The translations under genes were made by a program, and so were the position numbers. From an uncultured bacterium (GTDB lineage Bacteria > Bacillota > Clostridia > Oscillospirales > CAG-272): a stretch of 64,000 bases of DNA. The notes under the pieces were generated by a model, which was not told where the DNA came from, ran no database searches, and saw only the letters and a program-made list of their open reading frames with translations. The DNA lies in assembly GCA_945920215.1 (NCBI GenBank), contig CAMEJM010000007.1, positions 598-64,597 on the forward strand, read 5' to 3'. Below, one piece after another: positions 15,786 through 54,235 of the stretch (its first letter is position 1; every line of letters starts with the position of its first letter).

Positions 15786-15810
15786 TAAGTGTTGCACTTC
15801 ACTTGACAAT

Positions 15811-16572
15811 TCACTCTGCAAAATACACTTCGCATCCCAATCGTTTTTCTATGTTTGCCCAGTTCGCAAACTCGGAGCCACGATCACAGGTAATCGTTTT
15901 TACTAATTCGCTCGGAAAACGAGACAATATTTCCACAATTGCGTTTTCCATGGTGTCTGCTTTTCTGTCCGGGATTTTCACTGCTATGTAAAACCGTGTT
16001 TTTCGTTCTGCCAAGGTCGCAAAACAAGCTTTGCTCTTTCCTTGTCCGCTTACCACTGTATCCGCTTCCCAATGCCCCGCTTCTTTTCGGCTGTATACGC
16101 TCTTGTCTCTCTTCCGTATGGACTTCCCGAGATTGTATTTACCTCTGGTTTCTTTCCCCGCGTGTGTCTTTCCTTTTCTTCGGAGGACTTTCAGGTTCCC
16201 GTTCACCAAATACTTTTCGTATATCCATCGGTAGATGGTTCTCCATGAAGGTACCTTTACCGGTGCGGCTGCACACGCGATCTGTTCCGGCGACCATGTC
16301 GCTTTCAGTTTCTCGTTTATATATTGAATTGTCTCTTCGTTCCAATACATTCCTCGGTGACAGTATGAACGCCGTAGCATTTATTTCTTTTGTGCTGTAT
16401 GGGGATAGTAGCTCGGTATCTCATACATATGCGTGCAGTTCCGACGCAGTTCCCGTGACACCGTGCTCACGCTCCGCCCTATCATTTTCGCTATTTCTCT
16501 GTAACTGTATCCCTTTTTGTAATATTCCCGTAGACAACAACGCTCTTCTATGGTAAGATGTATATAGCTCAT
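15811..16572 (-). pseudogene. IS30-family transposase with an in-frame TAA and 3' truncation
   Basis: The HTH part MSYIHLTIEERCCLREYYKKGYSYREIAKMIGRSVSTVSRELRRN ends ..AQKK-TAA-MLRRSY in the same frame. The catalytic D (HWEADTV) and D (TCDRGSEF) are present, but the ORF stops at VYFAE before the third acidic residue. Confidence 0.8.
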
Positions 16573-16650
16573 ATCGCTTTTCCCCTGTTTCTTGTTTGTG
16601 TGGTAACTACATTATAACAGGTTTGCGGTATGAGTGTTTTCTTTTTTCAT

Positions 16651-16721
16651 GTGTTGCACTTGATAGTATAATTCACCGTTTTTTCTTTTTCCAAGTGTTG
16701 CACTTGATAGTATAATTCACC
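16651..16721. repeat. Two perfect 27-bp direct repeats (gtgttgcacttgatagtataattcacc), 17-bp spacer
   Basis: Copies at 16651-16677 and 16695-16721. A related copy gtgttgcacttcacttgacaattcac lies at 15789-14 in the same orientation. Confidence 0.9.
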
Positions 16722-16727
16722 CTGATT

Positions 16728-16757
16728 TAAAAAATGCCAGCACAAAAGTGCTGGCAT
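16728..16757 (-). terminator. Rho-independent terminator after the DUF4926 gene
   Basis: atgccagcac / gtgctggcat form a 10-bp stem with a 4-nt loop, followed by TTTTT on the minus strand. Confidence 0.7.
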
Positions 16758-16939
16758 TTCGATAAGATGATATGCATATCACAAATTAACATATTTGTCA
16801 ATAGGTTTTTGCAATAATTATTGAAAATCTATTGCAAATTTTGAAAAATATGATATAATAAGTATACGGTTAAGTGGTGTGCTTTGGCATATCACCCTGC
16901 ACCAGGAAGCTATTGGCGTAGTTTCTTGGTGCTTTCTTG

Positions 16940-17128
16940 TTATTTGTATGATTTGGCGAGTTCTATTACGTTTTTAGGAGTGGTAACTACATCGAGTGTG
17001 TCTCCGTCTTTGTTGAAAAACTCAACTTCATACATTGAATCGTCGTATTTGTGGACAATGGTTCCTTCTGTGCCCATAGGAAAGCCTTGGAACTCTCGAA
17101 CCAAACGCACAACATCTAATTCTTTCAT
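16940..17128 (-). CDS. DUF4926 domain protein (62 aa)
   Basis: MKELDVVRLVREFQGFPMGTEGTIVHKYDDSMYEVEFFNKDGDTLDVVT matches the family pattern. Start at ATG 17128 with an AAGGAGG SD. The longer ORF-track start overlaps the upstream gene. Confidence 0.7.
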   Translation of the reverse strand: MKELDVVRLVREFQGFPMGTEGTIVHKYDDSMYEVEFFNKDGDTLDVVTTPKNVIELAKSYK

Positions 17129-17138
17129 AAAAACCTCC

Positions 17139-17540
17139 TTAATCGGGATATACCGTAATAATCTTGTATGTGACATGACCGTGATCCTTTTGGATAACCA
17201 CGACCACTTTTGCCGATACGCTTTGTCCGTTTTTACCAACCAATGTAGTGTGATATGTGTGTTTCACTCCGTATTGCGTGGTTTCGGTTTTTGTTGGTGT
17301 CTTTACAAGGATTGACTTGGTCACATTTTCATGAAAGAGTTTGGAATCGCTTTGCGTATAGCCCAAAACATCTCTCATAAACTTCGCTTTAGCAGCACCA
17401 ACGGGATGATTGGGGTTCAGCAGGTATCCCTCCGTTTTTTGCTGACTGTATTGCAAGTCCGAAGTGTTTTTGATAGGTGCAGAACTGTTATTGTTTGCAC
17501 CTTTAGTGTTTGAATAATTTCCGGACATACCTGCGCCCAT
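17139..17540 (-). CDS. DUF6883 domain protein
   Basis: YLLNPNHPVGAAKAKFMRDVLGYT ... TQYGVKHTY...GKNGQS...VVVIQKD...ITVYP matches the family as I recall it. TAATG overlap with the upstream stop. Confidence 0.6.
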   Translation of the reverse strand: MGAGMSGNYSNTKGANNNSSAPIKNTSDLQYSQQKTEGYLLNPNHPVGAAKAKFMRDVLGYTQSDSKLFHENVTKSILVKTPTKTETTQYGVKHTYHTTLVGKNGQSVSAKVVVVIQKDHGHVTYKIITVYPD

Positions 17541-18211
17541 TATACCGCCCTCCTTCTCTTTGTTGAAGTCCAGTCGGGATAATTGACAAATTGTGTTCTG
17601 TTCTTAAATTCACCAAAGATACATTCGGGCATACCTCCGTATACAAGCACTACTTCCGGTGAGAGCTCATCAAGCATTGCAGACAATCCTTTACGGAAAT
17701 AATTCTTGTTTTCTCGGCTTTGAATACAACCGTATGTACCAATAGAAACAATACTGTTTTTCGGTGCGCCAAGAAATGCGAATTTTTCAGGCAACTCAAC
17801 TGTTGTAAAACTACGTTCATCTCCCCAACGGATATTCGGGATAACATACAATCCTCGGGATTGCAGATAATGTCCTACTGCACGGTTCATGTAGGTGTTT
17901 GCTATTTGCAAGCACAACGGCATATCGCGATACAGAGAGCAGTCTGGAGAAATGACCGCAGAGAAGCTCGAAAGCTCTGGAAGCAATTCTTTTGTACAGG
18001 TAAGTACATCAGAGAACCTCTTGTCGTGCTCATAAAAATGAACAGCCTCTGACTTAGTTTCGCTTCTTTTCATTTGTGTGAAGGGAATGAGTCCAGATGG
18101 AATAATGATTTCTTTGGGTTTCTCGATAATAGGAATTTCCAAGAGACCGTCAAAGAAAGCGTTGGAAACAAGTTCGGCATTAAAGCCGTCATCGATGATA
18201 GTTTTTGACAT
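17540..18211 (-). CDS. DUF4417 domain protein
   Basis: 223 aa containing VHFYEHDKRF..SPDCSLY.DMP...N.YMNRAVG.YLQSRG..VIPN.RWGDERS. This is family-level recognition only. Confidence 0.65.
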   Translation of the reverse strand: MSKTIIDDGFNAELVSNAFFDGLLEIPIIEKPKEIIIPSGLIPFTQMKRSETKSEAVHFYEHDKRFSDVLTCTKELLPELSSFSAVISPDCSLYRDMPLCLQIANTYMNRAVGHYLQSRGLYVIPNIRWGDERSFTTVELPEKFAFLGAPKNSIVSIGTYGCIQSRENKNYFRKGLSAMLDELSPEVVLVYGGMPECIFGEFKNRTQFVNYPDWTSTKRRRAV

Positions 18212-18423
18212 GTGTGTTTTAACCTTTCTCCTCGTAACGAGGCAATGTGATTTTGCTGTTAGTCAATAGTTAAGAAAGGGTAGGCTAAAACACTCGTTTC
18301 GGTTAAGTGGTGTGCTTTAGCATATCCTGTCTATATTGATTGTGTGAGATTCATCAAGCGTTGTTGGCGCAACCCTTGATATTGCGTAAAATCATAAGGC
18401 ATCACTCCTTTCAAAGTGCTATT

Positions 18424-18948
18424 TTAGTATGTTAATCTCTTTTTGGCTGCAGCATCTGATACTCCATATGTGTCCTTAAGTTGTTCGACTGTCATTCCTT
18501 TCGTCGCATCATATGGCATCATTACTTCTCCGGCAAGTGCCATAACAACCCATTCGAGACTTCGATATACGGGAATATCTTTTGTCAGTTGCCTCGAGAA
18601 AATCGGCTTGAATCCGAGTTTGTCCGCAAACACGTGCATGATCTCGTGTATGATATGCATTCGATGTCCGCCAGTTTTCTTCTCATGCGCACCGATGTAT
18701 ACGGTATCTTTGATTTGAATCAAATAGCCATCATCGGTTAGTATACATTGAGCAGGAACATTTTGGGGAAGTTCGTTTCCGTATACGATTTCGTATCGCA
18801 CATCTTCAAAACCTTTCAAATCAGGGAGTCTATCGAGAAGAACAATCGGGTCAATACATTCATCAGGAGTGAACCCGCAAATGGAACGGAACAGTAAGGC
18901 GTACAGCCGTAACTCTCTTCGGTTGGTGGCTTTGGTTTCGTAATCCAT
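18424..18948 (-). CDS. ImmA/IrrE-family zinc metallopeptidase
   Basis: HEIMH (HExxH) motif in a 174-aa protein. It overlaps the stop of the XRE gene (ATGA-type junction). Confidence 0.85.
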   Translation of the reverse strand: MDYETKATNRRELRLYALLFRSICGFTPDECIDPIVLLDRLPDLKGFEDVRYEIVYGNELPQNVPAQCILTDDGYLIQIKDTVYIGAHEKKTGGHRMHIIHEIMHVFADKLGFKPIFSRQLTKDIPVYRSLEWVVMALAGEVMMPYDATKGMTVEQLKDTYGVSDAAAKKRLTY

Positions 18949-19310
18949 TAACTATCCTCCCCGCCGAGAAGTTTGATGATGGCTGCTGCTGTGGCTTCAT
19001 CAAGATTCTCAAAAGAACGCTGAAACTGAACCGCCAATCTTCTTTGGGTGTTGTTCGCGGTTGTCAAATTGATTTTCATCTGCGTCTTAGAATGTTCAAC
19101 TGCGTCAATCAATTCTGCTTGTTCGATGGGTGATAAATTATAGTGTTCAATCAACACAGGAATCCATTCTTCAGGCACATTTCTCTTGCCACTTTCAACT
19201 GTCGAGATAAAAGGGAGTTTGACACCGAATAATTTAGCAGTATCTCCCATAACCTCGTGGTGTTTTATTCTTTGTATTCGCATGAATTCTCCGAATTTCG
19301 TATATCCCAT
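18948..19310 (-). CDS. XRE-family HTH transcriptional regulator (ImmR-like)
   Basis: FGEFMRIQRIKHHEVMGDTAKLFGVKLPFISTVESGKRNVP helix-turn-helix. It is paired with ImmA. Confidence 0.85.
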   Translation of the reverse strand: MGYTKFGEFMRIQRIKHHEVMGDTAKLFGVKLPFISTVESGKRNVPEEWIPVLIEHYNLSPIEQAELIDAVEHSKTQMKINLTTANNTQRRLAVQFQRSFENLDEATAAAIIKLLGGEDS

Positions 19311-19337
19311 AATAAATCTCCTTTCTCTGTTAGTAGT

Positions 19338-19366
19338 ATTATATCATATGTTTTTCAATTTGTCAA
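19338..19366 (-). promoter_or_regulatory. Consensus promoter for the immR-immA pair
   Basis: On the minus strand: TTGACA (19366-19361), 17 nt, TATAAT (19343-19338). Confidence 0.65.
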
Positions 19367-19451
19367 TAACTAATTTAATCAAAATTTGATTAAATATAAA
19401 AATGAATTAAAAATGTCGATTATCAAAAGCAGAGAACCGCCATTATTTTGT

Positions 19452-19677
19452 GTGAGCTTTTTGAGTTATATCGTTTACCTTGTAAACGGTTATATTGTTT
19501 ACGTTGCAAACAGTTATATTTTTGCCGGAGGCAAAAGTTGTATTATATTTGCCTTAACTTCTCTTTGAAAAAGAGAAATAAAACTTTGCGTAAGCAAAAT
19601 ATCACGCCGTAGGCATATCACTTGCCGTAAGGCAAATATAGCTGTGGCGTAGCGATAAATCCCTATCGCTACGCCAC
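19452..19677 (-). repeat. 226-bp modular multi-hairpin element, copy 1 (sense strand taken as minus, 3' of ruvX)
   Basis: It holds 8 short hairpins separated by (G)NNATAT-type spacers and capped by the 12-bp stem gtggcgtagcga/tcgctacgccac. It is the inverted homolog of 49380-49628. Confidence 0.85.
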
Positions 19678-19756
19678 TAACGCGCCGTCCTCTTTGATTT
19701 CGCCGTGCAGGAGGGGAAGCCGCCCTTACAGCGCGGCAAATCAAGTCTGCTTCCGC

Positions 19757-21742: not shown

Positions 21743-21834
21743 TATCGGGGTGAATGATACTGTCAAGTACAACACTTGAAAAAGAAAACACCCATACCGC
21801 AAATCTGTTATCAGCAGTTGCGCCGTAAATAACC

Positions 21835-22236
21835 CCTCCGCTCCGGCTTATCCCGGTGCTCATCGAAAGAATTTCGCGCAAGACAAGGCGCACCGCAGAC
21901 GCCCTCCCGACGGCGTACATTCCTACGACGAGGGAGTAGGCGAGGAGCAACGCCTATTGCACCCTGCACCTCCGCTCCGGCTTATCCCGGTGCTCATCGA
22001 AAGAATTTCGCGCAAGACAAGGCGCACCGCAGACGCCCTCCCGACGGCGTACATTCCTACGACGAGGGAGTAGGCGAGGAGCAACGCCTATTGCACCCTG
22101 CACCTCCGCTCCGGCTTATCCCGGTGCTCATCGAAAGAATTTCGCGCAAGACAAGGCGCACCGCAGACGCCCTCCCGACGGCGTACATTCCTACGACGAG
22201 GGAGTAGGCGAGGAGCAACGCCGTATTGCGCGAAAT
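21835..22236. repeat. Tandem repeat, 3 x 134 bp
   Basis: Units start at 21835, 21969 and 22103 (cctccgctccggcttatcc...). Units 1 and 2 look identical by eye. Unit 3 diverges in its last ~13 nt as it runs into the queA 3' end. Confidence 0.9.
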
Positions 22237-49278: not shown

Positions 49279-49379
49279 CGCTTCCCGCAGGAAGCCGCGG
49301 GCAAATCGCCCGCCTGCCGTCATTGCCTTTCCAACAGAAATATGCTTTGCATTTTGCTCTCAAAAGGGGCGCAGCGTAA

Positions 49380-49628
49380 GTGGCGTAGCGAAAGGGATTG
49401 ATCGCTACGCCACAACTATATTTGCCTTGCGGCAAGCGATATGCCTTCGGCGCGATAGTTTGCTGAAAGCAAAGTGATATTTTCCCTATCGGGAAAGTGA
49501 AGGCAAATATAATATCACTTCGGCTGAAAGCCGAAATATCTCTTTCACCGCAGGTGAAAATATCTCTGTTTGCGACAGCAAACAATATAACCGTTTACAA
49601 AGTAAACGATATAACTCAAAAAGCTCAC
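49380..49628 (+). repeat. 249-bp modular multi-hairpin element, copy 2 (sense = plus, 3' of atpC)
   Basis: Reverse-complement homolog of 19452-19677 with one extra hairpin module. It has the same 12-bp capping stem and the same ATAT-type spacers. Confidence 0.85.
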
Positions 49629-49670
49629 TTCCTTGCAATGCAGGGTATCGTGAGCTTTTCTTTTTTCTTA
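49619..49670 (+). terminator. Hairpin + U-tract closing the element / atp operon
   Basis: aaaagctcac / gtgagctttt form a 10-bp stem with a 21-nt loop, followed by cTTTTTTcTTaTTc. Confidence 0.55.
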
Positions 49671-49906
49671 TTCTTGTAGAATTTCCCTAACGGGAACACC
49701 ATTGCGGACGCCCCTTTTCCTGTTGTCCGCTTTGTCCCGCTCCCCGTCTTGCGCTTCCGCGCGCGCCGCTTTGCAAAGGGAAAGGAAACAAACAGGACGG
49801 AGACGGAAAAAAGCCCTCCTTGTTTCTTTTTGTATTTCCCTTATAAAAAGAAAATTCCGGAATATACTATAACAATCAGCCAAATCGTAAAAAAGGAGGA
49901 AACCGC

Positions 49907-54048: not shown

Positions 54049-54125
54049 GGAGGCATAGCTCAGTCGGTTAGAGCACTTGCTTCACATGCAAGGGGTCACA
54101 GGTTCGAGTCCTGTTGTCTCCACCA
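54049..54125 (+). tRNA. tRNA-Val (anticodon CAC), CCA encoded
   Basis: Hand-folded cloverleaf. Acceptor ggaggca/tgtctcc, D arm gctc..gagc, anticodon stem cttgc/gcaag with loop ttCACat, T arm acagg-ttcgagt-cctgt. Confidence 0.88.
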
Positions 54126-54158: not shown

Positions 54159-54235
54159 GGAGGCATAGCTCAGTCGGTTAGAGTACTTGCTTGACATGCA
54201 AGGGGTCACTGGTTCGAGTCCAGTTGTCTCCACCA
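54159..54235 (+). tRNA. tRNA-Val (anticodon GAC), CCA encoded
   Basis: Same scaffold as the neighbour, with loop ttGACat and T stem cactgg/ccagtt variants. Confidence 0.88.

What the first reader, a model, noticed from the sequence alone, without database searches (positions are those of the whole stretch)
19452..19677. Modular multi-hairpin element with compensatory stem changes (structured RNA candidate)
SEEN, layout (read on the minus strand, the same sense as the upstream ruvX):
- The element is a 12-bp capping stem (gtggcgtagcga..tcgctacgccac) followed by a train of 5-8-bp hairpins.
- Each hairpin is separated by ATAT-containing spacers (atataac, gtgatat, tgatat).

SEEN, comparison with the second copy (49380-49628, plus strand):
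- Spacers and architecture are conserved, but the stems differ in a base-pair-preserving way.
- Examples are ttttgcc-tcc-ggcaaaa vs tttcacc-gca-ggtgaaa, and ttctcttt-ttc-aaagagaa vs ttccc-tatc-gggaa.
- One stem (tgtttgc..gtaaaca) is a G.U pair in this sense but A.C on the other strand.
- Several loops read as C(UNCG)G-type tetraloops (cUACGg, cUCCGg here; cUUCGg in copy 2).

ESTABLISHED: Covariation, G.U asymmetry and UNCG loops are hallmarks of selection at the RNA level.

INFERENCE: This is a transcribed 3'-UTR or sRNA element, perhaps an exonuclease roadblock or a multivalent protein-binding array. Alternatively it is a REP/BIME-like ssDNA element. I do not recognise it as a named RNA family.
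Basis: partly seen in the sequence, partly recalled or inferred. Interest (0 to 1): 0.7.

Follow-up and report, generated by a model that had tools for sequence, protein, structure and literature searches.

The report
Gut-1 hairpin-array repeat in terminators
The multi-hairpin element is real, but it is a copy of the already catalogued "Gut-1" motif, which here looks like a multi-copy, strand-symmetric palindromic repeat sitting in transcription terminators of gut Clostridia rather than a dedicated structured RNA.

Summary
The hairpin train at 19452-19677 (-) and its second copy (49380-49628, +) exist and fold far better than shuffles. Compensatory stem changes are confirmed: 98% of cells paired across 97 relatives, and 14 of 18 pairs change on both sides.

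It is not unnamed. The core hits Rfam RF01706 (Gut-1 RNA) at 49.0 bits against a gathering score of 50. Close relatives score 53-68 bits.

- G.U pairs equal A.C pairs in every stem class.
- The "UNCG tetraloops" are C(UNC)G triloops.
- Left-half linkers and loops (AGTGATATT, T..C) are exact reverse complements of right-half ones (AATATCACT, G..A), p=6e-27.

The element is multi-copy and dispersed behind unrelated genes and tRNAs. It is absent from the syntenic atpC site in sister lineages. It is capped by a 12-16 bp hairpin and often enclosed by an A-run/T-run terminator stem (copy 2: 49362-49718).

Copy 1 is cut at the apex of its inner terminator by a low-GC island.

Best reading: a REP/BIME-like repeat embedded in terminators and co-transcribed as a 3' tail (confidence 0.55). 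It is a new member of a known family of unknown function.

The parts
19683..19697 (-). Copy 1: 5' flank homologous to the outer-stem arm of copy 2 (TCAAAGAGGACGGCG). Its 3' partner is missing.
   Evidence: Alignment A1. No reverse-complement partner was found elsewhere in the window.
19644..19677 (-). Copy 1 cap hairpin (15 predicted pairs, followed by AGCUAUAUUU).
   Evidence: Flagged as terminator-like. A cap directly abuts the left domain in 93 of 95 relatives.
19535..19643 (-). Copy 1 left domain. Four short hairpins are joined by GTGATAT-type linkers. The distal arm AAGGCAAATATA can also pair with the 5' TATATTTGCCTT. It contains the Rfam Gut-1 match 19573-19644.
   Evidence: Model R1 scores 101.2 bits. 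Gut-1 scores 49.0 bits, E 5e-9.
19465..19536 (-). Copy 1 right array. Three 7-bp hairpins (19520-19536, 19496-19512, 19472-19488) are each followed by ATATAAC.
   Evidence: TRF finds a 24-nt period, 2.4 copies, at 19464-19520.
19452..19464 (-). Copy 1: 5' arm of the inner terminator (TCAAAAAGCTCAC). Homology to copy 2 stops here, at the hairpin apex, where the low-GC island begins.
49362..49371 (+). Copy 2 outer stem, 5' arm (AAAAGGGGCG).
   Evidence: It forms in the minimum-energy and centroid folds.
49380..49413 (+). Copy 2 cap hairpin.
49414..49520 (+). Copy 2 left domain. It contains the Gut-1 match 49413-49485.
   Evidence: Model R1 scores 94.4 bits. Gut-1 scores 40.3 bits.
49519..49615 (+). 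Copy 2 right array. Four hairpins are joined by ATATCTC or ATATAAC linkers, one more unit than copy 1. On the opposite strand it resembles a left domain.
   Evidence: Gut-1 hits the minus strand at 49507-49593 with 29.3 bits.
49618..49667 (+). Copy 2 inner intrinsic terminator: AAAAAGCTCAC..GTGAGCTTTT followed by a T-run, preceded by an A-run.
   Evidence: RNA-run contigs stop at about 49683.
49709..49718 (+). Copy 2 outer stem, 3' arm (CGCCCCTTTT).
   Evidence: Such outer stems occur in 35 of 77 relatives against 7.6% in the control.

Best explanation
WHAT IT IS
Both window copies belong to the Gut-1 family (Rfam RF01706). That family is best read as a dispersed, multi-copy, non-coding palindromic-unit array of gut Clostridia. 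It is REP/BIME/REPIN-like in logic but not in sequence. It is lodged in or beside intrinsic terminators at the 3' ends of genes and tRNAs.

ANATOMY (shown)
- An optional outer A-run/T-run stem.
- A 12-16 bp cap hairpin.
- A 105-nt left domain of four tagged hairpins: tag AGTGATATT, then a stem with a C(TNC)G loop.
- A right array of 0-5 of the same kind of unit in inverted orientation: a stem with a C(GNA)G loop, then AATATCACT.
- An inner terminator.

HOW IT WORKS (inferred)
- The unit of selection or recognition is a DNA-level tagged hairpin that must pair on both strands. This explains almost pure Watson-Crick stems.
- Arrays grow and shrink by duplication or loss of 22-26-nt hairpin-plus-linker units.
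- Copies are spread by an unidentified trans-acting activity, or by recombination, to terminator palindromes.
- Because the insert is wholly self-folding, the host terminator arms can still meet. The element is therefore tolerated and co-transcribed as a 3' tail.
- There it may add termination or 3'-exonuclease protection in either direction.
For: FAMILY IDENTITY
- Gut-1 near-hit on both copies.
- 18 Gut-1 matches in the 18 loci scanned pass Rfam's gathering score.
- The flanks printed in the original Gut-1 alignment show the same cap, closing stem and hairpin train.

STRAND SYMMETRY
- Linkers are GTGATAT/GTTATAT on the left against ATATCAC/ATATAAC on the right.
- Loops are T..C 53 to G..A 1 on the left, and 2 to 52 on the right. 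Fisher p=6e-27.
- The left-domain model hits the opposite strand over right arrays in about 20 loci.
- Both strands of full copy 2 fold to -142.7 kcal/mol.

NO RNA-STRAND SIGNAL
- Stems are 97-98% Watson-Crick, and G.U is about equal to A.C.

DISPERSAL
- Up to 3 copies within 8 kb.
- About 7 independent unseeded copies (my reading of 12 extra arrays, some of which continue seeded elements) in 0.79 Mb.
- Metagenome depth on the element is 25-85 times that of the flanks.
- No neighbouring protein family is enriched.
- 18 of 111 copies lie directly after tRNA genes of nine amino-acid specificities.
- Each window copy is closer to a copy at a non-orthologous locus in another genome (89% and 88%) than to the other window copy (77%).

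PRESENCE/ABSENCE
- In the syntenic atpD-atpC-transglutaminase arrangement, the spacer is 628 nt here. It is 159-235 nt, with plain terminator hairpins, in lineages whose AtpC is 73-75% identical.
- None of 80 more distant atpC loci has the element.
- A relative with 86% identical AtpC has it with fewer right units.

TERMINATOR ASSOCIATION
- 93 of 95 copies have a cap. 26 caps are A-run/T-run terminators.
- 35 of 77 copies have locus-specific outer stems, against 7.6% in the control.
- Genomic contexts: 27 convergent, 32 tandem, 4 divergent.
Against: - No transposase, RAYT-like gene or target-site duplication was found.
- Copy number in a complete genome was not measured.
- The left domain is unusually conserved across families for a selfish repeat.
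- Orientation is biased towards the upstream gene: 64 to 19, and 18 of 18 tRNAs. A purely DNA-level repeat does not predict this.
- One metatranscriptome has contigs running from atpC through the element and stopping at its terminator.
- Weinberg et al. rated Gut-1 'certainly RNA' on covariation (PMC2864571).
- The outer arms of the two window copies resemble each other. They may therefore belong to the element rather than to a pre-existing host terminator.
Confidence: 0.55

Rival explanations
1. A genuine structured RNA element selected at the RNA level. This could be a 3'-UTR exonuclease roadblock or terminator extension, or a multivalent protein-binding (sponge) RNA. The mirror symmetry would arise because the site lies between convergent genes and must work for transcripts from both directions.
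For: - Strong covariation.
- It is placed 0-30 nt after stop codons and directly after tRNA 3' ends, co-oriented 82 to 19.
- It ends in an intrinsic terminator.
- RNA-run contigs cover atpC through the element and none lie beyond 49740, while DNA runs do cover that region.
- 27 of 63 contexts are convergent.
- Rfam and Weinberg classify it as an sRNA.
Against: - There is no G.U excess on the sense strand in any stem class.
- The loops are not UNCG or GNRA motifs shared by both halves. They are reverse complements of each other.
- In 26 of 93 copies the cap is itself a full terminator, so the body lies beyond it.
- There are tens of copies behind unrelated genes.
- It is absent from orthologous sites.
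- The RNA evidence consists of contigs from one metatranscriptome, with no strand information and possible DNA carry-over.
Confidence: 0.27
2. An array of double-stranded DNA binding sites (ATATCAC in two orientations) for a nucleoid, segregation or regulatory protein. The hairpins would be incidental.
For: - The conserved 7-9-nt linker is repeated 5-9 times.
- It appears in inverted orientation in the two halves.
Against: - The sequence between the sites is variable but kept 97-98% self-complementary, with many double changes. A dsDNA site array does not require this.
- Spacing varies: about 16-20 nt on the left and 22-26 nt on the right. There is no helical phasing.
- The element is located at gene ends, not at promoters.
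Confidence: 0.08
3. A self-contained portable bidirectional terminator module. The outer stem, cap and inner terminator would all be parts of one unit whose selected function is termination. Dispersal would be by ordinary recombination or horizontal transfer rather than transposition.
For: - Outer stems carry an A-run and a T-run.
- Terminator-type caps are present.
- The outer arms of the two window copies are alike.
- The full element folds with its ends paired on both strands.
Against: - A plain 30-nt hairpin does the same job in sister lineages, so the 300-nt interior is unexplained.
- Outer arms are locus-specific in other genomes.
- 21 of 85 copies have no right-half linkers and several are cut short by unrelated DNA, yet they are retained.
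Confidence: 0.1

Closest known systems
Gut-1 RNA motif (Rfam RF01706; Weinberg et al. 2010, PMC2864571)
   Same: - Same core: tandem short hairpins joined by GUGAAAU/GUGAUAU linkers.
- Gut metagenome origin.
- Relatives of the window copies pass the family's gathering score.
- Flanks in the original alignment show the same cap, closing stem and AUAUCAC hairpin train.
   Different: - The window copies score 49.0 and 40.3 bits, just under the 50-bit cut-off.
- The Rfam model covers only 77 nt of a unit of roughly 280-430 nt.
- The family is filed as an sRNA gene of unknown function found only in human gut. Here it is in pig and ruminant gut MAGs as well. It is multi-copy, strand-symmetric and tied to terminators.
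REP / BIME / REPIN elements (definition from PMC3733652 and PMC3116915)
   Same: - Short palindromic units with an unpaired conserved tag at one end.
- Units clustered in opposite orientation that can fold into larger structures.
- Located downstream of ORFs between convergent or unidirectional genes.
- Plausibly transcribed.
- Multi-copy (abstract read).
   Different: - The tag is GTGATAT, not GTAG or CGTC.
- Stems differ from unit to unit within one element, whereas REPs of one genome share a consensus.
- Units are arranged as a block of direct units followed by a block of inverted units, not as simple doublets.
- The host is Clostridia, which the REP survey read here does not mention.
- No RAYT gene was identified.
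BOX elements of Streptococcus pneumoniae (from my own knowledge)
   Same: - Modular non-coding intergenic repeats with a variable number of internal modules.
- Strong predicted secondary structure.
- Co-transcribed with neighbouring genes.
- No encoded protein.
   Different: - Unrelated sequence and host.
- BOX modules (boxA, boxB, boxC) are 45-59 nt with conserved sequence, not 17-25-nt variable palindromes with a constant linker.
- BOX is not known to be nested in terminators.
Rho-independent (intrinsic) terminators
   Same: - The inner hairpin 49618-49667 and 26 of 93 caps have an A-run, a GC-rich stem and a T-run.
- Outer stems have the same form.
   Different: A terminator is a single hairpin of 20-40 nt. 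Here about 300 nt of further hairpins lie inside or behind it.

Membership tests
Rfam RF01706 Gut-1 RNA | Covariance-model score at or above the curated gathering score (50 bits). | tested here: not met
   Copy 1 scores 49.0 bits and copy 2 scores 40.3 bits. The miss is narrow. Homologues with the same architecture score 53.2-67.6 bits, 18 matches in the 18 loci scanned.
Rfam RF01706 Gut-1 RNA | Three tandem short hairpins separated by a conserved GUGAAAU-type linker. | tested here: met
   Alignment to the model consensus over positions 1-77. The linker here is GUGAUAU, as in several members of the original alignment.
Rfam RF01706 Gut-1 RNA | Homology to accepted members. | tested here: met
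   Model R1, built from 78 relatives, scores the window copies at 101.2 and 94.4 bits. It scores Rfam-passing loci at 99.5-123 bits.
Rfam RF01706 Gut-1 RNA | Functions as an RNA (filed as Gene; sRNA). | tested here: inconclusive
   RNA-run contigs cover it. However, there is no wobble bias and the halves are mirror images.
REP/BIME/REPIN | Short extragenic palindromic units in many copies per genome. | tested here: inconclusive
   Units are extragenic palindromes. Evidence for many copies: 2 per 64 kb here, up to 3 per 8 kb, and depth 25-85 times the flanks in metagenomes. No complete genome was counted.
REP/BIME/REPIN | Unpaired GTAG or CGTC tag at one end of the palindrome. | tested here: not met
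   The tag is A-GTGATAT-T or its complement.
REP/BIME/REPIN | Units close together in opposite orientation that can fold into larger structures. | tested here: met
   The left block is direct and the right block is inverted. The whole element folds on both strands.
REP/BIME/REPIN | A cognate single-copy RAYT (Y1 transposase) gene flanked by the repeats. | not testable with these tools
   Only 8-kb stretches around matches were available. No enriched neighbouring gene was seen. Nothing coding lies between the inverted copies in L005.
MITE | Terminal inverted repeats, direct target-site duplication, and a related autonomous IS. | tested here: inconclusive
   - A cap and an inverted cap-like hairpin bound many type-B copies. 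Outer flanks are inverted, not direct.
- One case (L114) has a direct repeat of the terminator's 3' arm.
- No autonomous partner was found.
Intrinsic terminator | GC-rich hairpin followed by a U-run. | tested here: met
   The inner hairpin 49618-49659 is followed by CTTTTTTC. The copy-1 cap was flagged as terminator-like.

The most novel reading that the evidence does not exclude
Gut-1 elements may be a previously unrecognised class of non-autonomous mobile DNA of gut Clostridia. They would be built from tagged hairpin units (GTGATAT tag, C(TNC)G loop) in two inverted blocks. They would insert at the apex of intrinsic-terminator palindromes and be mobilised by a still unknown enzyme. This would be a Firmicute counterpart of REPIN/RAYT systems, and the Rfam label 'sRNA gene' would then be wrong.
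Probability: 0.35. Interest if true: 0.65.

Novelty: new member of a known kind. Interest (0 to 1): 0.42.

Why it matters
Gut-1 has sat in Rfam since 2010 as an orphan 'sRNA' known only from human gut metagenomes. No other paper in the library searched mentions it.

What this work adds:
- It places the family in named gut Clostridia lineages from pigs, ruminants and humans.
- It shows that the 77-nt model is a fragment of a modular unit of roughly 280-430 nt.
- It shows that the unit is strand-symmetric, multi-copy and tied to terminators.

This changes which experiments make sense. The useful ones are a search for a mobilising enzyme, tests of termination and strain polymorphism. A search for a trans-acting sRNA target is less useful.

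It also matters in practice. The repeat breaks short-read assemblies of these genomes: many matches lie at contig ends. It also marks sites where other mobile DNA lands.

Tried and rejected
- Rfam at gathering threshold on the whole window found only two tRNAs. The Gut-1 match appeared only in E-value mode.
- A partner for the broken terminator arm or outer arm of copy 1 was sought at the far end of the low-GC island. None was found. A simple 'island inserted into an intact element' model cannot be shown, and an IS30-like fragment abuts that end.
- Strains with an identical RuvX (L118, L119) diverge from the window exactly at the stop codon and run into an IS end. They give no clean empty site.
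- Phage or plasmid origin is rejected. There were 0 matches in IMG/VR, 0 in plasmids, and 2 partial matches in unannotated faecal 'Bacteriophage sp.' records.
- Cis-regulation of a gene family is rejected. No upstream gene cluster exceeds 2 members and no downstream cluster exceeds 4.
- Long-range pairing of left and right linkers as RNA did not form in minimum-energy folds. The linkers of copy 1 (GUGAUAU on the left, AUAUAAC on the right) are not complementary.
- The choice between local hairpin 1 and the long-range closing stem cannot be made. Both rest on the same single covarying column.
- RNA-seq for a human-gut relative (L103) was uninformative. The hits were to the neighbouring tRNA.
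- Literature searches for REP-like repeats in Clostridia or for tandem hairpins in Oscillospiraceae returned nothing.

Full report
1. WHAT IS IN THE SEQUENCE

Copy 1, read on the minus strand, has these parts:
- A 34-nt cap hairpin at 19677-19644.
- A 109-nt left domain at 19643-19535. It holds four short hairpins joined by GUGAUAU-type linkers and ends in AAGGCAAAUAUA, which can pair with the domain's first bases UAUAUUUGCCUU.
- Three 7-bp hairpins, each followed by AUAUAAC, at 19536-19465.
- UCAAAAAGCUCAC at 19464-19452.

Copy 2 has the same order on the plus strand. It carries one extra right-hand hairpin. It also has the missing half of the last stem, so that AAAAAGCTCAC..GTGAGCTTTTCTTTTTT (49618-49667) is a complete intrinsic terminator.

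The copies are 86% identical. Several stems differ on both arms. Both fold far better than shuffles, with z -6.3 and -8.2. Copy 1 folds equally well on the opposite strand, with z -6.7.

Copy 1 follows ruvX and copy 2 follows atpC. Each is co-oriented with its upstream gene.

2. IT HAS A NAME

At gathering thresholds Rfam reports only two tRNAs. In E-value mode the core of both copies matches RF01706, the Gut-1 RNA:
- 19573-19644 (-): 49.0 bits against a cut-off of 50, E about 1e-8.
- 49413-49485 (+): 40.3 bits.
- 49507-49593 on the opposite strand: 29.3 bits.

Gut-1 was described by Weinberg et al. 2010 (PMC2864571) as a probable non-coding RNA seen only in human gut metagenomes. No function was given. 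The paper's own alignment file prints flanks, and members such as BAAZ01000095 show the same cap hairpin, closing stem and AUAUCAC-spaced hairpin train. No other paper in the library mentions the motif.

3. RELATIVES

Nearly all are gut Clostridia MAGs: Oscillospiraceae, Acutalibacteraceae, Faecousia, Christensenellaceae and others. They come from ruminants, deer and humans, and many matches lie at contig ends. Public runs holding the window itself are pig gut metagenomes.

The left domain has a nearly fixed length of 104-106 nt. A covariance model built from 78 relatives (A2, R1) finds 100 strong matches. The two window copies score 101.2 and 94.4 bits, and nothing else in the window matches.

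Eighteen matches in the 18 loci scanned pass Rfam's own Gut-1 threshold at 53-68 bits. They include L004 and L008, which carry the window's cap type. Membership by homology is therefore secure, although the window copies narrowly miss the curated score.

4. COVARIATION IS REAL

On the model-guided alignment A4 (97 distinct rows):
- 98.2% of cells form standard pairs. Shuffles give 77% and slid partners give 31-52%.
- 14 of 18 pairs change on both sides, in 307 cells.
- 0 of 500 shuffles reach any of the observed measures.

The long-range stem TTATATTYGCC/GGCRAATATAA is 96% paired. However, it varies at only one column, which is the same column that supports the competing local hairpin 1. The choice between the two cannot be made.

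5. THE OTHER TWO 'RNA HALLMARKS' FAIL

Wobble pairs show no strand bias.

| Stem class | Sense G.U | Sense A.C |
|---|---|---|
| About 250 distinct inter-linker hairpins (97-98% Watson-Crick) | 11 | 13 |
| Left-domain alignment | 23 | 17 |
| 95 caps | 15 | 18 |

For the left-domain alignment the binomial p is 0.43.

The supposed C(UNCG)G loops cannot form without breaking the next pair. The loops are 3-4 nt closed by C-G.

6. MIRROR SYMMETRY

- Left-half linkers are GTGATAT (199) and GTTATAT (92).
- Right-half linkers are their reverse complements, ATATCAC (163) and ATATAAC (35).
- Left loops read T..C 53 to G..A 1. Right loops read 2 to 52. Fisher p=6e-27.
- Right-half stems are longer: 6.6 against 4.7 bp.
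- The left-domain model hits the opposite strand over right arrays in about 20 loci.
- The full copy 2 folds to -142.7 kcal/mol on either strand.

The unit is therefore a tagged hairpin that occurs as a block of direct copies followed by a block of inverted copies. This is a property of the DNA, or of transcripts from both strands. It is not what a one-strand RNA motif would show.

From my own knowledge, C(GNA)G is the classic very stable DNA mini-hairpin loop. This is a lead only and was not tested.

7. WHERE IT SITS

- A cap hairpin (median 12 bp) directly abuts the left domain in 93 of 95 cases. Twenty-six caps are full A-run/T-run terminators of differing sequence.
- Eighteen of 111 elements start 34-42 nt after a tRNA gene of nine amino-acid specificities, and all are co-oriented.
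- With a crude gene call, the upstream gene is co-oriented 64 to 19. It often ends 0-30 nt before the cap.
- Genomic contexts are 27 convergent, 22 tandem co-oriented, 10 tandem opposite and 4 divergent.
- No protein family is enriched on either side.
- In 35 of 77 elements with enough flank, the 9-20 nt just 5' of the cap are reverse-complementary to a segment a median of 364 nt downstream. Mismatched controls give 7.6%.
- These arms differ from locus to locus. As read by eye in the listing, the arms commonly carry an A-run 5' and a T-run 3' (the script counted 26 and 11 of 35). The whole element then sits inside what looks like a bidirectional terminator.
- Copy 2 has such a stem (49362-49371 with 49709-49718), and it forms in the predicted fold.

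8. DISPERSED AND POLYMORPHIC

- It is absent from IMG/VR and from plasmids. Only two partial matches were found, in unannotated faecal phage-labelled records.
- Some 8-kb loci hold two or three copies. About 7 independent unseeded copies (my reading of 12 extra arrays, some of which continue seeded elements) occur in 0.79 Mb.
- In pig-gut DNA runs, depth over the element is 25-85 times that of the flanks.
- None of 80 atpC loci from more distant relatives carries an array.
- Two lineages with 73-75% identical AtpC keep the atpD-atpC-transglutaminase order. Their spacers are 159-235 nt and contain a terminator-like hairpin, against 628 nt here.
- A lineage with 86% identical AtpC has the element with only two right-hand units.
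- Each window copy is closer to a copy at a non-orthologous locus in another genome (89% and 88%) than to the other window copy (77%).
- Within copy 1, the right array is a 24-nt tandem duplication. This shows how arrays grow.

9. TRANSCRIPTION

One metatranscriptome, available only as contigs with no strand information, has contigs from the 3' end of atpC into the cap and across the element up to about 49683. It has none beyond 49740, where DNA runs do have coverage. This weakly supports co-transcription that ends at the inner terminator. Data for copy 1 and for a human-gut relative were uninformative.

10. COPY 1 IS BROKEN

- Identity with copy 2 stops at 19452, the apex of the inner terminator.
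- From there to about 15787 runs a 42% GC island, against about 58% around it.
- The island encodes a weak HTH protein, an ImmA/IrrE peptidase, DUF4417, DUF6883 and DUF4926. It ends in an IS30-like integrase-core fragment.
- The missing 3' arms are not found elsewhere in the window.
- Several relatives are likewise cut inside a hairpin by unrelated DNA (L108, L011, L100, L104).
- Twenty-one of 85 lack any right-half linker.

11. INTERPRETATION

Shown:
- Family identity.
- Anatomy.
- Covariation.
- Strand symmetry.
- Lack of wobble bias.
- Terminator association.
- Dispersal.
- Presence/absence at a syntenic site.

Inferred:
- The element behaves like a REP/BIME/REPIN-type repeat with its own tag.
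- Arrays change by unit duplication or loss.
- It lands in or carries terminator palindromes.
- It is tolerated because it is entirely self-folding.
- It may help termination or 3'-end protection in both directions.

It fails the REP tag criterion (GTAG/CGTC; PMC3733652), and no mobilising gene is known. I therefore call it REP-like in logic and not a member of that family. An RNA-level role remains possible at about one chance in four. The orientation bias and the RNA contigs are its best support.

Noticed in passing
window 15787-19451: A low-GC (42%) island lies next to copy 1. It carries a perfect TTGACA-17-TATAAT promoter at 19338-19366 (-), a weak HTH protein (18948-19310), an ImmA/IrrE M78 peptidase (18424-18948), DUF4417 (17540-18211), and DUF6883 (17139-17540) overlapping DUF4926 (16940-17239), which may be a toxin-antitoxin-like pair. 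An IS30-like integrase-core fragment (15811-16380) abuts the stop codon of a hexapeptide acetyltransferase gene.
   Followed up: partly
window 16614-16646 and 21779-21811: A 33-nt inverted repeat, 94% complementary, lies 5.1 kb apart. It brackets most of the island, copy 1, ruvX and an RlmA-like methyltransferase gene. It could be IS ends or an invertible segment. One arm overlaps a 44-nt tandem duplication (16637-16721) that contains a promoter-like TTGCAC..TATAAT.
   Followed up: no
window 21835-22229: A 134-nt unit is repeated 2.9 times at 99% identity, just beyond the inverted-repeat arm. Its coding status was not examined.
   Followed up: no
window 54049-54122 and 54159-54232: Two tandem tRNA genes, 95% identical, lie 110 nt apart start to start. 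Neither is followed by a Gut-1 element, although 16% of elements elsewhere sit directly behind tRNA genes.
   Followed up: no
L013, L016, L018, L022, L099, L101, L105, L115 (3' of the right array): Copies with the GAGGCGCACTCC cap share a further conserved 3' module. It consists of ..CCCACTATGACACTTTCA..TGAAAGTGTCAT-T-run, followed by a hairpin GGGAGA.CACTTC-TTTAC-GAAGTG.TCTCCC that resembles the cap in inverted orientation. This gives the roughly 400-nt unit hairpin 'terminal inverted repeats'.
   Followed up: partly
L096 3860-4150, L107, L110: Other short repeats lie next to Gut-1 arrays. Examples are GTAGGGGACGGCGCCCTCGACGTCCCGAAAAA and GGGAGGTGGCACGGCGAAGCCGTGACGGAGGGA. In L096 they alternate in tandem with partial Gut-1 units.
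   Followed up: no
L001, L020, L102, L103 (downstream of the element): A roughly 120-aa protein (MSDSILRCKSKDFAKQIVFLCRD...) that I take, from memory and untested, for a four-helix-bundle (23S-rRNA-intervening-sequence / Avd-like) protein is the nearest gene in 4 loci. It is the only recurring neighbour, and the count is too low to call an association.
   Followed up: no
L118 966-1139, L119 580-704, window 15787-15830: Strains with an identical RuvX protein carry an IS end (..CTTGACAATTCACTCT..) within about 45 nt of the ruvX stop codon. That is where the window has copy 1 and the island. The same IS end occurs in the window at the far side of the island, in the opposite orientation.
   Followed up: partly
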